DNA of 40,019 nt. It comes from Escherichia phage Evi. The stretch lies in sequence record LR597642, one strand, 5' to 3'. Below, one piece after another: positions 21,001 through 24,000 of the stretch (position 1 is its first letter; every line of letters begins with the position of its first letter). Made by a program: the position numbers.

Positions 21001-24000
21001 ATAATCAGGGAAGGCCATACCCCTTGTTGCATCTGAGAATGGCCAATAACATGTAACCAATGTGGCAGAGAAGATATCATTGATTTTTTTGGCTAAAAGC
21101 CACGATGTAAGAACAGCTCTGCTCACTATCTGGATTGCTCATTTGGTACTCGCTTGCAAAGGTAAGGGCAAGACAGTCACCGGCACGTAAATGATGGGTC
21201 TGATTTTTGACTCGAAAATCAAGGCTACCACTCATCACCCAAAGCGTTTGCCCGGAAAGATGCTCATTTGCGGAGGCGGGTATCGTCAACTCACCCATTG
21301 CAGGAATTTCAACTTTGATCAGTTCCGGGCATGCCCCCGCAGGAGACAAAGACCAACGAGTGATGCCTGATTGCTCATCCGTCCAGTGCTGTTGCTGATG
21401 AGCAAAACGAACCAGGGAATTCTGATGTTGCTCAAGCTCTGCAAAGAGTTTAGATAGCGTTACATTCATGGCGTTGGCCAGGCGGCTAAGGATAGTTGCA
21501 CTAGGGCTGGAGATGCCTCGTTCAATCTTACTAATCATGGCCTGACTGACGCCCGATCGTTGAGCAAGCTCTGTTACAGTCAAATTGCGAGCCTTCCTGT
21601 GTTTAAGCAATAAACGTGCAATATCGCTATCTACTATCTGATTTTTAGATTTTTTATCCATTTCAGCCCTCTCTTTCACCAACCTGATTATGCCATTACA
21701 TAAATTGGCCTGAAATAAATGATTTTGTAAGTCTGTAAATTCACTATTCCTAAGCGTGGTACTTCGTTTATACGCACCTATGACCTTAAAATATGAGTTG
21801 GTAAGCTTAACGTCCGCTTTTGGCACAAAGCGGACAACCACGCTAGCTCTATCCTGTGCCACAAAATGTCAATTCACATCTTAACTAATGCATTTTAATC
21901 TCGCCACTTCAATAAATACCGAACATCCCCCCTGATAAAACGACAATATGCGCTGCATAACTTCGCTTTTACGACACTCAGTACAAATTATATTATGACG
22001 CCTGTCGTAACGACGTATTTCTCCATCAGGTAATGACCAGATAAGGTCCGGATCAACCGCAGATGGTTTCTTCAGCTTTGCCCTTGAGAGCTTTTTACGG
22101 GCATTTTGCCAGTCCTTACGCGCCTGCTCAGACGGGAATAACCCGTAACCAGAGTTGTATACATCGCCACTGGCAACCAGCTCTCTGGCGAGAACGCTGA
22201 TCAGATATCTTGTCGCACCTGTTTTAGCTTCCAGTTGTCGTAACGTCTCGCGACCGCTCTGGCGCACAAGTTCGACCACCTGCCCTTTAATTTTTTCCCG
22301 CTCTTCCTGTGTAAAAACTTTTACCACAAGTTCTCCTTAAAATTACCTCATGACCTGAAATCAACACTTATCCCCTGAAACCAGGCGGAATTTCTGTATC
22401 AGGTTCAGAAATATGATTCACACAACGCTGGTTGTTCGTGCCGCTTACCGGGAGCAACCAGGGGTTCTCAAAATTCCGGTCCGGTCCAAAAAACGTCGTC
22501 GCTCGCTGAACAAATTCCGTTCCCGTCTTCCCGGTAGCCGCCAGGTATCTTGCGTAACGCCTCACACCATCCAGCATGGCCTCTGGTAGCACCCCCTCGC
22601 GTAACCTGGCTTTCCAGGCACTGAAAGCGGATTTCTTCGGGTTTGCCCCGGCACGCAACGGGTATTCCCGCCAGACCTGTTCGAACACATCAGGATAATC
22701 CACTCGTCCCACAGGCTGCCCGGTGTTTTCCGGGACTACCCGATCGGCTTCCCGCTGAATGGCGGAATCGGCTTCAGGCTGCTGAAGTTGGTGTGATTGC
22801 TCCTGCCTTGCGGTCATCACCTGCTGCACAGCGCCCGAATCGGCTTTCAGCGCATACGCTGAATCGGCTTCCGGTGTCGTGCCTGCTGGCTGACCAGGAT
22901 TGACGGTCTGAACATCCCCTGCCTGGTTCGTGGCGTTTTTTACGCCATGGACCATAGTGTTTTGATCTTCTTGATCTGTATCTTTATCTGTATCTTTATC
23001 TGTCGTGACTCGTCGTGACATGTGCGTGACATTTCGTGACTCGCCGTGACAATCGCCATTTTGTTCCCGCTTTCTTTCCCTCTCTCGCTGCGCCCTCTTG
23101 CGCTCTGCCGGAGATTTTGCGGTTTGCGAAATATTGCCGTTGTCCTCTTTCAGCACCTGGCGTTTTTCCCATCCAGTGATTAAATCACCATCAAGTACCC
23201 GCCCCTGCATCGTCTGCAAAATTGAATCAATTACCTCTTCTGTCACGTCGAGCGCACTTGCCAAATCTTCTGTCGTGACATCAATGTGACCTCGCGTGAC
23301 ATTTCGTGACGCGCTCACCAGGAGGTGGATATACACTGCCATCACTGTTGCAATTGGCTGCCCTGACACCCTGGCAATTGTTCGCCACTTAGGGTCATTT
23401 GGCATGTCATGCCATAATCTGAGCCAGGCGTTAGCCATACTCACCTCTTCTGATACCGAATCTTTTTACTCACGAGTTGCCGGAAGCGATTCGATATGGC
23501 TATTGTCAGTCAATGTACTGCCACAGCATTTCCTGCCGGGCCACCACGGTTCATCTGATTGAAACCGGCGATTGCCACTGCGACAAAATCATCAGCGTCT
23601 CTCACCAGTCGCTCCCGCGTCTCCACCAGCTCCCGAAAATAAGCTGAACTGTGGCTGCGCATTCTGGCCACCAGCAAAGGTGGCATTGCCTTTTCGATCG
23701 CTGGTAACAACGCCTGAATTTTTTCAACTGCATCAGGGGTGTCTTTCTCTATCCAGCGGAAAATTTTCTGAGTATTGCGAGCCAGAGCTTCCGGATGGCT
23801 GTCGTCATACAGTTCCGGGAACGTCATTCCCAGTTCGAAATACGCTTTGGTAATTTTCGCAGCCGGTATTTTTTCGCCGTCCGGATGCGCCCAGGCATTC
23901 ATCGCCATGCGGATGTGTTCATGCTTGATTTTCATGAATCAACTCCATCAGATAAGCATGCACTACAATCACCTTCAGCATGAACTACATGCGTTTGCCC

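What the first reader, a model, noticed from the sequence alone, without database searches (positions are those of the whole stretch)
22975..23310. Two iteron arrays and an AT-rich repeat inside the O-like gene
Five (T)CGTGAC repeats at 10-11 bp phasing and a 12-bp repeat lie in the linker-coding part of the gene, which is the lambda ori arrangement. A second array of four sits about 225 bp upstream in the N-terminal domain coding region, plus one inverted copy at about 23242. Two phased arrays is more than the single lambda-type array and could mean a bipartite origin or a second initiator or regulatory binding site.
Basis: partly seen in the sequence, partly recalled or inferred. Interest (0 to 1): 0.45.

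Follow-up and report, generated by a model that had tools for sequence, protein, structure and literature searches.

The report
Two-array replication origin inside prophage initiator gene
A prophage replication-initiator gene found in about a third of complete E. coli genomes carries, inside its own coding sequence, two clusters of short repeats plus an AT-rich stretch that look like a lambda-style replication origin, and comparison with about 80 relatives shows both clusters are conserved as DNA signals, not as protein code.

Summary
In the minus-strand gene 22368-23438, GTCACG occurs five times at 10-11 bp spacing (array B, 23004-23050) and four times (one is GTCACa) about 230 bp upstream (array A, 23274-23310). 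One inverted copy lies at 23242-23247, and a 30% GC (GATAAAGATACA)n tract follows array B.

The repeats fall in all three reading frames. In 21 non-redundant relatives (66-73% nucleotide identity) synonymous codon choice is free across the domain but fixed at the array A and inverted-copy codons (0.90-1.00 against a mean of 0.43, p=1e-5). Across 78 non-redundant relatives the motif changes (GTCACG, GAACGC, GTAACG, GTGACG), and it changes in both arrays together.

Array B plus the AT-rich tract has the lambda ori layout: disordered-linker codons and the same relative position as oriλ. However, the protein is not a lambda O homologue. It is a winged-helix-like "replisome organizer"-type protein with a DnaT-like C-terminal tail and no adjacent P or DnaC gene.

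Array A lies in an insertion-tolerant loop of the DNA-binding domain. A few relatives lack it, so it is probably accessory.

Best reading: a bipartite origin bound by one initiator, with array A's exact role unresolved. I found no published description. Verdict: new variant of a known kind; interest about 0.55.

The parts
22368..23438 (-). Replication initiator gene (356 aa from ATG 23438; the ORF list gives GTG 23444). RefSeq calls it 'phage replisome organizer'.
   Evidence: PHROG 3729 'replication initiation protein', E 1e-256. No Pfam family reaches threshold. The start codon is inferred from the Shine-Dalgarno sequence and from relatives.
23154..23438 (-). Coding region of the N-terminal winged-helix-like DNA-binding domain (aa 1-95).
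   Evidence: AF2 model: helices 4-14, 16-25, 29-45, 56-63 and 67-77, then a beta-hairpin at 78-87, with pLDDT about 90. Foldseek gives only weak matches to wHTH regulators. PF09681 aligns end to end but below threshold, E 0.12.
23274..23310 (-). Array A: four iterons (GTCACG, GTCACG, GTCACa, GTCACG in gene orientation) at 10, 10, 11 bp. They cover codons A43-T55, which form the end of helix 3 and the loop before helix 4.
   Evidence: The copies sit in frames 2, 0, 1, 0. Synonymous sites are fixed in 21 relatives. Relatives with longer loops carry extra iterons (L005, L024, L026, L028, L029, L042).
23242..23247 (+). Single inverted iteron (GAC GTG ACA, D64-V65-T66), in the turn between helices 4 and 5.
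   Evidence: Position. The Val65 codon is GTG in 18 of 18 relatives. It becomes GTT, giving CGTTAC, in the GTAACG-class relative L026.
23052..23111 (-). Coding region of a basic helix (aa 110-129, ERKRAQRERERKRE) just before array B. Its sequence differs between motif classes.
   Evidence: AF2 helix 110-129; class alignment.
23004..23050 (-). Array B: five GTCACG iterons at 10, 10, 11, 10 bp, covering codons about 130-145 of the disordered linker. Proposed core initiator-binding array of the origin.
   Evidence: Positions. The copies sit in frames 1, 2, 0, 2, 0. An array is present at this place in 43 of the 53 gene copies classified, i.e. in every one assigned to a motif class.
22955..23003 (-). 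AT-rich, purine-rich tract (ACA GAT AAA GAT ACA GAT AAA GAT ACA GAT CAA GAA GAT CAA, coding TDKDTDKDTDQEDQ). It includes the 12-bp repeat and two GATC sites (22964-22967 and 22973-22976). Proposed DNA unwinding element.
   Evidence: GC is 0.30; the repeat is reported. In 43 of 44 relatives an (A)GATAA(A)GA tract follows the last iteron. It is 23 points more AT-rich than the gene as a whole (p=4e-9) and appears in different reading frames.
22924..22954 (.). 13-bp-arm palindrome next to the AT-rich tract. On the + strand it scores as terminator-like.
   Evidence: (I2). It is not conserved in distant relatives. Lambda also has dyad symmetry to the right of its AT tract (own knowledge, not tested here).
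22371..22439 (-). C-terminal tail (..SEPDTEIPPGFRG), matching the extreme C-terminus of E. coli DnaT.
   Evidence: phmmer against the PDB: 6aep, 2ru8 and 9zbt, E 0.005-0.02. NCBIfam DnaT, E 0.0014.

Best explanation
This is the replication origin of a lambdoid, Qin-like prophage. It is embedded in the gene of its own initiator and built on the lambda plan, but with a non-homologous initiator and a second binding cluster.

Proposed steps, all inferred:
1. The initiator's N-terminal winged-helix-like domain binds the 10-11-bp-phased direct iterons, one protomer per helical turn on one face of the DNA.
2. Array B, five sites directly next to the (GATAAA)n AT-rich tract, is the core. Initiator oligomerised there distorts the DNA and melts the AT-rich tract.
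3. The C-terminal half, with its DnaT-like tail and no phage P or DnaC gene nearby, then brings in the host DnaB/DnaC.
4. Array A (four sites) and the inverted site, 190-260 bp upstream inside the domain-coding part, are extra sites of the same specificity. They most likely raise local initiator occupancy or loop onto array B, or throttle rightward transcription through the gene.

Shown here:
- The repeats exist and are non-random.
- They are DNA-level signals under purifying selection.
- Both arrays and the inverted copy share one specificity, which has switched several times in concert.
- The N-domain, both arrays and the AT-rich tract travel together as one mosaic module.

Not shown: that the initiator is the binder, that the AT-rich tract melts, how the helicase is recruited, and what array A does.
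For: 1. Non-random clustering. The window has 5 copies in 50 bp, against at most 2 in 300 simulations. There are no other clusters in the window or in phage Tritos.

2. DNA-level repeat, not a peptide repeat. The copies occupy all three reading frames.

3. Frozen synonymous sites. In 21 non-redundant GTCACG-class genes (66-73% nucleotide identity to the window) the major-codon fraction is 0.90-1.00 at A43, S44, V47, T48, G50, V54, T55 and V65. At 29 other conserved 4-6-fold codons the mean is 0.43 and the maximum 0.61 (Mann-Whitney p=1e-5). The same holds in 35 GAACGC-class genes: CGC Arg 35/35, ACG Thr 35/35, AAC 35/35, GAA 35/35, while the spacer Gly is free.

4. Concerted motif change. Of 78 non-redundant genes, 63 have at least 3 copies of one 6-mer in region A. 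In 56 of these the same 6-mer occurs at least twice in region B. A gene's own A motif occurs 2.89 times on average in its own B region, against 0.15 times in the B regions of other classes. The closely related L028, L024 and L026 switch CGTCACG to CGTAACG in array A, the inverted copy and array B together. A TGTGACG class does the same.

5. Phasing. Across the 43 gene copies with a motif class, iteron spacing is 10 bp 153 times and 11 bp 37 times.

6. AT-rich tract. It directly follows the last B iteron in 43 of 44 loci and is read in different frames.

7. Lambda parallel. The codon position, the order iterons then purine-rich AT tract, and the gene order cII-like, initiator, Ren-like all match (PMC7466680).

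8. Mosaic boundary. Pseudomonas phages share only 22972-23427, which is the N-domain, the arrays and the start of the AT tract, at 70% nucleotide identity. Shigella phage POCJ13 shares only the C-terminal half and has no GTCAC arrays.

9. Sole replication gene. The isolated phage Tritos has this gene as its only recognisable replication gene.
Against: - No binding, unwinding or replication data exist for this family. I found none in six literature searches.
- The N-domain's DNA-binding fold is only weakly supported. The best Foldseek E-value is 0.26 and PF09681 scores E 0.12.
- The predicted 'recognition' helix (aa 67-77) is acidic and hydrophobic, and it is conserved across motif classes. What reads the variable dinucleotide is therefore unclear.
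- Because the arrays lie inside the gene, co-inheritance of motif and protein is automatic and does not prove that this protein is the binder.
- Several relatives lack array A (L040 and L178; weak in L160 and L180). A few from AT-rich hosts show only one or two degenerate B iterons (L030, L032, L044). Array A is therefore not essential for the family.
- The A-to-B distance varies from 219 to 350 bp without a clear helical register. This gives no positive support for looping.
Confidence: 0.7

Rival explanations
1. Array A is not part of the origin. It is a negative-control or autoregulatory locus, like incA of the P1 plasmid or incC of F. Initiator bound inside the first 200 bp of its own gene would block transcription from the early-right promoter, or would titrate or handcuff initiator. 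That would limit initiator supply and the transcriptional activation of array B.
For: - Same specificity as array B, which a titration or feedback site requires.
- Array A is dispensable in some lineages that keep array B and the AT tract.
- Array A has no AT-rich tract of its own.
- Its copy number is evolutionarily plastic, from 3 to 6.
- Iteron plasmids provide the precedent of an origin array plus a control array (own knowledge; PMC5397158 covers handcuffing).
Against: - No expression or copy-number data exist.
- No promoter-like signal above chance is associated with it.
- A lytic-phase phage origin has no obvious need for copy control.
- This reading overlaps the best explanation and is not excluded by it.
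Confidence: 0.3
2. Array A is a by-product of the coding sequence. In this view the conserved peptide (ASRNVTRGH.DVT) happens to be spelled with GTCACG-like codons, or it is a relic duplication of array B with no present DNA-level function.
For: - The peptide is conserved in the GTCACG class.
- Arrays A and B share a 39-nt stretch at 72% identity, which could reflect an old duplication (D1).
Against: - Synonymous sites are fixed only at motif positions, in two independent motif classes.
- The motif sits in three different frames.
- The peptide changes completely between classes (SRNVTRGH, SNATERGRTQ, CNAVKRGETQCNA) while keeping a 10-bp DNA repeat identical to that of array B.
- Loop insertions add whole iterons.
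Confidence: 0.04
3. The repeats act in the mRNA or in single-stranded DNA, for example by GUCACG pairing with the inverted CGUGAC, rather than as duplex protein-binding sites.
For: - The inverted copy co-varies with the direct copies (GTG to GTT in L026), as a stem would.
- The minimum-free-energy fold pairs one direct copy with the inverted copy.
Against: - Folding energies are not unusual: z = -0.79 for the array A region and -1.56 for the array B region.
- Four or five direct copies at helical-turn spacing cannot all pair with one inverted copy.
- Array B has no inverted partner.
- No Rfam family matches the gene.
Confidence: 0.04
4. The arrays are bound by a protein other than the initiator, such as a host factor or the neighbouring YdaT/CII-like or DUF977/Ren-like protein. 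Alternatively, the two arrays are bound by two different proteins.
For: No binder has been demonstrated. The predicted recognition helix does not vary between motif classes.
Against: - Only the N-domain accompanies the arrays across hosts from Escherichia to Pseudomonas, Aeromonas, Bordetella and Variovorax. The downstream genes and the C-terminal halves differ.
- A host factor would not change specificity four or more times within Proteobacteria.
- The identical motif in A and B argues against two different binders.
Confidence: 0.07

Closest known systems
oriλ inside gene O of phage lambda and other lambdoid phages (λ, 933W, P27, φ80, 82, P22 gene 18)
   Same: - The origin lies inside the initiator gene, at the codons linking the N- and C-terminal halves. 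Lambda's iterons are at codons 117-145 and array B here at about 130-145.
- A direct array of initiator sites is followed by a purine-rich AT tract that encodes a K/D/E/T-rich linker.
- The N-terminal half and the iterons form one specificity module, and the C-terminal half is exchangeable.
- The gene order is cII-like, initiator, Ren-like (PMC7466680).
   Different: - The initiator is not homologous to O: there is no PF04492 match and hhalign probability is 0.04.
- The iterons are 10-11-bp asymmetric direct repeats. Lambda's are about 18-19 bp with dyad symmetry and about 20-24 bp spacing.
- There is no P gene.
- A second, co-evolving array and an inverted site lie inside the DNA-binding-domain coding region. 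Lambda has nothing comparable annotated.
SPP1 G38P 'replisome organizer' with oriL inside gene 38 (and related organizers of Gram-positive phages, Pfam PF09681)
   Same: - The initiator binds direct repeats located within its own gene, next to an AT-rich unwinding element (PMC6316719).
- RefSeq and PHROG names put the window protein in this functional class. PF09681 aligns over its whole length, but below threshold.
   Different: - SPP1's second set of sites (oriR) is about 13 kb away, not 230 bp upstream in the same gene. No distant cluster exists in the window or in phage Tritos.
- SPP1 encodes its own loader and helicase (gp39, gp40); this prophage does not.
- Sequence membership in PF09681 is not met (E 0.12, 12.8 bits against a cutoff of 23.3).
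Iteron plasmids with an origin array plus a control array (P1 oriR/incA, F ori2/incC)
   Same: There are two arrays of identical initiator sites close to the rep gene, and only one adjoins the AT-rich unwinding region. The other array is dispensable for initiation, which is consistent with the B-only relatives here. The plasmid facts are from my own knowledge; handcuffing is reviewed in PMC5397158.
   Different: - Plasmid iterons are 17-22 bp, lie outside the rep coding sequence, and are bound by two-winged-helix Rep proteins.
- A control function in a phage lytic origin is unproven.
- Here both arrays are translated.
Satellite phage P4 ori + crr (bipartite origin)
   Same: Two separate clusters of the same short initiator-binding repeat are both bound by one initiator (own knowledge, not checked here).
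   Different: - The P4 clusters are about 4.5 kb apart.
- The P4 initiator (alpha) is a primase-helicase.
- The P4 clusters are not embedded in the coding sequence of its DNA-binding domain.

Membership tests
Lambda-type intragenic origin (oriλ architecture) | Origin sequences located inside the initiator's own gene, at the inter-domain linker codons | tested here: met
   Array B and the AT tract cover codons about 130-160. AF2 pLDDT is below 50 for residues 129-163. Lambda's iterons are at codons 117-145.
Lambda-type intragenic origin (oriλ architecture) | Tandem array of repeated initiator-binding sites directly followed by an AT-rich tract | tested here: met
   Five phased repeats are followed by a tract of 30% GC. 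The arrangement is conserved in 43 of 44 relatives. Binding itself was not tested.
Lambda-type intragenic origin (oriλ architecture) | Iterons are about 18-19 bp with internal dyad symmetry (bound by O dimers) | tested here: not met
   The repeat unit is 10-11 bp and asymmetric (core GTCACG). Compare the lambda sequence.
Lambda-type intragenic origin (oriλ architecture) | Supports initiator-dependent replication when cloned | not testable with these tools
   Needs an ori-plasmid assay.
Phage_rep_O (lambda O protein family, PF04492) | Sequence match to PF04492 or homology to lambda O | tested here: not met
   No hit even at E of 10 or less, whereas lambda O scores 5.7e-36. hhalign probability is 0.04.
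Phage_rep_O (lambda O protein family, PF04492) | Partner P-type helicase loader encoded immediately downstream | tested here: not met
   The downstream gene is DUF977/Ren-like. No DnaC, P or DnaB gene was found among the early-region ORFs scanned or in the annotation of phage Tritos.
Replisome organizer (SPP1 G38P type, PF09681 N-terminal domain) | N-terminal domain matches PF09681 above the gathering score | tested here: not met
   E 0.12, 12.8 bits against a cutoff of 23.3, although aligned over positions 1-118 of 121. There are weak PHROG hits to 'replisome organizer' families 4880 and 5968 (E 7e-6 and 1e-4).
Replisome organizer (SPP1 G38P type, PF09681 N-terminal domain) | Binds direct repeats within its own gene next to an AT-rich unwinding element | tested here: inconclusive
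   The sequence architecture is present and under selection. Binding was not tested.
DnaT-like C-terminal module | Match to the DnaT DNA-binding domain (PF17948) or to the DnaT C-terminus | tested here: inconclusive
   Only the last 23 residues or so match DnaT (E 0.005-0.02; NCBIfam E 0.0014, far below the cutoff). PF17948 is present in some relatives with other C-terminal halves.
Iteron-plasmid origin plus control locus (P1 incA type) | Second array of identical iterons that is dispensable for initiation and lowers copy number | not testable with these tools
   The identical motif is shown. Natural B-only relatives exist. The effect on copy number is unknown.

The most novel reading that the evidence does not exclude
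Array A may be more than an extra binding cluster. It encodes the one loop of the DNA-binding domain that differs between specificity classes: SRNVTRGH.DVT for GTCACG, SNATERGRTQ for GAACGC, CNAVKRGETQCNA for GTAACGC. The rest of the fold, including the predicted recognition helix and the wing, is nearly invariant.

If that loop (perhaps with the class-specific basic helix) reads the variable dinucleotide of the iteron, then the specificity determinant would be encoded by its own binding sites. A base change in the array would then alter both the protein and its target at once. Array B would follow by gene conversion. This would be a built-in route to rapid, concerted switching of origin specificity, and so to replication incompatibility groups among prophages.
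Probability: 0.12. Interest if true: 0.85.

Novelty: new variant of a known kind. Interest (0 to 1): 0.55.

Why it matters
- The gene is very common. In 1647 of 5426 complete E. coli genomes a match covers at least 80% of the 1.3-kb query, and 3207 genomes hold at least part of it. Relatives occur in prophages across Gamma- and Betaproteobacteria. Even so, I found no description of its origin in the searchable literature.
- The comparative data give a ready-made map of the likely origin: core iterons, unwinding tract and an accessory array. They also provide at least four natural specificity classes that differ by a dinucleotide.
- That makes several experiments straightforward. Array A can be destroyed by synonymous recoding without touching the protein, and iteron classes can be swapped.
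- The system could address three questions: how a single-gene ('initiator-solo') phage replicon recruits the host helicase, what a second iteron cluster does in a phage origin, and how initiator-origin specificity co-evolves when the sites are themselves translated.
- For annotation, the arrays are a simple signature for calling origins in this class of prophages.

Tried and rejected
- Homology to lambda O: none.
- Solved-structure relatives of the N-domain by sequence profile: none. The only hit was a ribosomal protein at E 0.08.
- Foldseek of the AF2 model against the PDB: only weak winged-helix regulator hits, E at least 0.26. The disordered tail probably lowers the scores.
- RNA-structure explanation: folding z-scores of -0.79 and -1.56 are not significant, and no Rfam family overlaps the gene.
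- Internal promoter in the arrays: one 9/12 match made of iteron sequence, and the overall count is not above the shuffles.
- A distant second origin like SPP1 oriR: no other motif cluster in the window or in the complete Tritos genome.
- Helical register of the A-to-B distance as a test of looping: distances range from 219 to 350 bp with no consistent phase, so the test is uninformative.
- Conservation of the palindrome beyond the AT tract: it is not conserved in relatives whose C-terminal halves differ.
- Micro-variation among 80 near-identical E. coli/IMG-VR copies: the arrays are essentially invariant, so this adds nothing.
- Literature searches for this motif or this initiator family: no direct hit. 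The review by Weigel and Seitz (2006) on phage replication modules, which may list this module type, is not in the library and could not be checked.
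Full report
**What is in the sequence**

The finding lies in a minus-strand gene, 22368-23444 in the ORF list. The real start is most likely ATG 23438: an AGAGGTG Shine-Dalgarno sequence lies 5 nt upstream, and relatives begin MANSW.

In gene orientation the hexamer GTCACG occurs at nt 129, 139, 149 (GTCACa) and 160. This is array A (window 23310-23274). It occurs once inverted at nt 193 (23242-23247), and again at nt 389, 399, 409, 420 and 430. This is array B (window 23050-23004).

Array B is followed at once by ACA GAT AAA GAT ACA GAT AAA GAT ACA GAT CAA GAA GAT CAA. 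This tract has 30% GC, contains the 12-bp repeat and holds two GATC sites. A 13-bp-arm palindrome at 22924-22954 comes next.

The cluster is far beyond chance. There are five same-strand copies in 50 bp, while 300 Markov simulations of the window never gave more than two. No other cluster exists in the window.

**The gene and its setting**

The window is a lambdoid, Qin-like prophage. It carries DicF, sok, three tRNAs, a Q antiterminator, RusA, DUF968 and an integrase. The early-right operon reads YdaS-type Cro, YdaT/CII-like, this gene, then DUF977/Ren-like. That matches lambda's order cII-O-P-ren, but without a P gene.

The protein matches PHROG 3729, 'replication initiation protein', at E 1e-256. 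RefSeq names it 'phage replisome organizer'. It is not a lambda O homologue:
- PF04492 is not matched even at E of 10 or less, whereas lambda O scores 5.7e-36.
- A profile-sequence comparison with lambda O gives probability 0.04.
- PF09681 (Phage_rep_org_N) aligns end to end, but only at E 0.12.

An AlphaFold2 model built on 53 sequences shows the following:
- a confident five-helix domain with a beta-hairpin (aa 1-95), winged-helix-like;
- a basic helix (aa 110-129);
- a disordered stretch (aa 129-163).

Foldseek gives only weak hits, to CAP, GntR and MarR winged-helix domains.

The last 23 residues or so (SEPDTEIPPGFRG) match the extreme C-terminus of E. coli DnaT. Relatives with other C-terminal halves carry the Pfam DnaT domain.

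The gene is very common. In 1647 of 5426 complete E. coli genomes a match covers at least 80% of the 1.3-kb query. It is also the only recognisable replication gene of the isolated phage Tritos.

**Are the repeats DNA signals or coding accidents?**

Three independent tests say they are DNA signals.

First, the copies occupy all three reading frames: 2, 0, 1, 0 in array A and 1, 2, 0, 2, 0 in array B.

Second, synonymous sites are frozen. I collected 52 loci from species-representative genomes and 80 from metagenomes. In 21 non-redundant GTCACG-class genes, only 66-73% identical to the window at the nucleotide level, synonymous choice is essentially free across the domain. The major-codon fraction has a mean of 0.43 and a maximum of 0.61 at 29 conserved 4-6-fold codons. 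At the motif codons it is fixed:

| Codon | Frequency of the major codon |
|---|---|
| GCG (A43) | 0.90 |
| TCA (S44) | 0.95 |
| GTC (V47) | 1.0 |
| ACG (T48) | 1.0 |
| GGT (G50) | 1.0 |
| GTC (V54) | 1.0 |
| ACG (T55) | 0.95 |
| GTG (V65, inverted copy) | 1.0 |

The separation is complete (Mann-Whitney p=1e-5). A second class with a different motif shows the same lock in 35 genes: CGC Arg 35/35, CGA Arg 32/35, ACG 35/35, AAC 35/35 and GAA 35/35. The Gly codon in the spacer is free.

Third, the motif itself changes between lineages, and it changes in both arrays at once. The classes are GTCACG, GAACGC, GTAACG(C)/TAACGC and TGTGACG, that is, a variable dinucleotide in front of an invariant ACG(C).
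- Of 78 non-redundant genes, 63 have at least three copies of one hexamer in region A. In 56 of those the same hexamer occurs at least twice in region B.
- A gene's own A motif occurs 2.89 times on average in its own B region. It occurs 0.15 times in the B regions of other classes.
- The closely related Erwinia, Pantoea and Enterobacter loci L028, L024 and L026 show CGTCACG changing to CGTAACG in array A, array B and the inverted copy. In the inverted copy the change is the synonymous GTG to GTT. L024 is a mixed intermediate.

Spacing across the 43 gene copies with a motif class is 10 bp (153 times) or 11 bp (37 times), one site per helical turn. RNA-structure explanations fail: folding z-scores are -0.79 and -1.56.

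**The AT-rich tract**

In 43 of 44 loci, whatever the iteron class, the last B iteron is followed directly by (A)GATAA(A)GA repeats:
- The tract is 23 percentage points more AT-rich than the gene as a whole (Wilcoxon p=4e-9).
- The coding strand of the tract is 71% purine.
- The tract is read in different frames in different genes (DKDKD, DTDTD, QIREEE, RLDKR).

It is therefore a conserved DNA element, not merely a low-complexity linker. Lambda has the same order: four iterons, then the purine-rich ACAAAAGACACTATTACAAAAGAAAAAAGAAAAGATTATT.

**Where array A sits in the protein**

Array A encodes the end of helix 3 and the loop before helix 4 (aa 43-55, with lower pLDDT). The inverted copy encodes the turn between helices 4 and 5.

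That loop is the insertion-tolerant part of the family, and insertions there consist of additional iterons. L005 has six; L024, L026, L028, L029, L042 and L191 have longer, iteron-filled loops.

The rest of the domain is nearly invariant across motif classes, including WLRLWHDMPNDPKWRT and AMQGRVLDG..GW..RQ. The parts that differ by class are this loop, the D-V-T turn and the basic helix.

**Module structure**

Pseudomonas phages share only window 22972-23427 with this gene, at 70% nucleotide identity. That span is the N-domain, both arrays and the start of the AT tract. Shigella phage POCJ13 shares only the C-terminal 160 residues and has no GTCAC arrays.

So the N-domain, arrays A and B and the unwinding tract move as one unit, joined to interchangeable C-terminal halves. 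This is the same mosaic logic as in the lambdoid O genes.

**Limits on array A**

Some relatives keep a good array B and AT tract but have no array A. L040 has three GTCAC and L178 has five GAACGC; in L160 and L180 array A is weak or absent. A few from AT-rich hosts have only one or two degenerate iterons next to (GATAAA)n (L030, L032, L044).

The A-to-B distance varies from 219 to 350 bp without a fixed helical phase. Array A is therefore selected where present but is not indispensable to the family. This points to an accessory role: enhancing occupancy or looping, or feedback control in the manner of plasmid incA loci.

**Mechanism proposed**

Shown:
- There are two co-evolving, phased arrays of one specificity, plus a conserved AT-rich tract.
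- These elements are embedded in, and inherited with, the N-terminal domain.

Inferred:
- The N-domain binds the iterons as a head-to-tail array.
- Binding at array B melts the adjacent tract.
- The DnaT-like or DnaD-like C-terminal half engages ssDNA and host DnaB/DnaC. DnaT's C-terminal domain forms filaments on ssDNA (PMC13377028).
- Array A modulates this process.

I put 0.7 on the overall origin reading. Within it, about 0.3 goes to array A being mainly regulatory.

**Comparison with known systems and novelty**

In architecture this is a lambda-type intragenic origin (PMC7466680) and it resembles SPP1 gp38/oriL (PMC6316719). It fails membership of the O family, and formally of PF09681. 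Its iterons are half the length of lambda's and lack dyad symmetry. It has no phage-encoded loader.

The feature without a counterpart in what I found is a second array, plus an inverted site, inside the coding sequence of the DNA-binding domain itself. This array co-varies with the main array across dozens of lineages. Six literature searches found no description of this origin or motif. An older review that might mention the module type could not be read.

I rate it a new variant of a known kind, with interest 0.55. It is well supported, common and directly testable, but it extends an established principle.

Noticed in passing
window 22371-22439 (-): The initiator ends in ..SEPDTEIPPGFRG, which matches the extreme C-terminus of E. 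coli primosomal protein DnaT (PDB 6aep, 2ru8, 9zbt; E 0.005-0.02). No P, DnaC or DnaB gene was found among the early-region ORFs scanned, or in the annotation of phage Tritos. This suggests a single-gene replicon that taps the host restart or loading machinery.
   Followed up: partly
window 22955-23003, and the 48 nt after array B in loci L004-L055: The AT-rich tract is a conserved sequence motif, (A)GATAA(A)GA repeated, purine-rich on the coding strand. It is kept in different reading frames across all iteron classes (43 of 44 loci). It is more specific than 'AT-rich' and could be a binding or unwinding motif in its own right.
   Followed up: partly
window 22964-22967 and 22973-22976: Two GATC (Dam) sites 9 bp apart lie inside the AT-rich tract of the E. 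coli version. This is possible SeqA or methylation control of the origin. They are not present in most distant relatives.
   Followed up: no
window 22924-22954 (+): The 13-bp-arm palindrome next to the AT tract scores as an intrinsic-terminator-like hairpin on the strand antisense to the initiator gene. It is specific to this lineage and not conserved in distant relatives.
   Followed up: partly
L045 1504-2694 and L053 1501-2805: Two relatives have the same N-terminal domain without any iteron arrays. It is fused to a different C-terminal region (YVYYVA..GISRNPWAR..) with no Pfam match. This may be a non-replicative reuse of the domain.
   Followed up: partly
window 20613-21862: A GNAT acetyltransferase (+ strand) and an HTH-cupin regulator (- strand) are inserted between the DUF977 gene and the rest of the early-right operon. 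They are probably cargo (moron) genes.
   Followed up: partly
window 24670-25195 (+): A PaaA2-type antitoxin and a ParE toxin pair lies immediately beside the repressor gene in the immunity region (Pfam E 2e-19 and 5e-16).
   Followed up: partly
window 27113-27164 (+), 19908-20082 (-), 15625-15811 (-), 16590-16830 (-): Rfam matches: DicF sRNA, sok antitoxin RNA, STnc100 sRNA and three tRNA genes. Together they mark the prophage as Qin/DicF-like.
   Followed up: no
L024 (Pantoea) gene nt 112-500: This relative carries a mixture of GTAACG and CGTGAC/GTCACG sites in both arrays. It looks like an intermediate in a specificity switch between the L028 (GTCACG) and L026 (GTAACG) states.
   Followed up: partly
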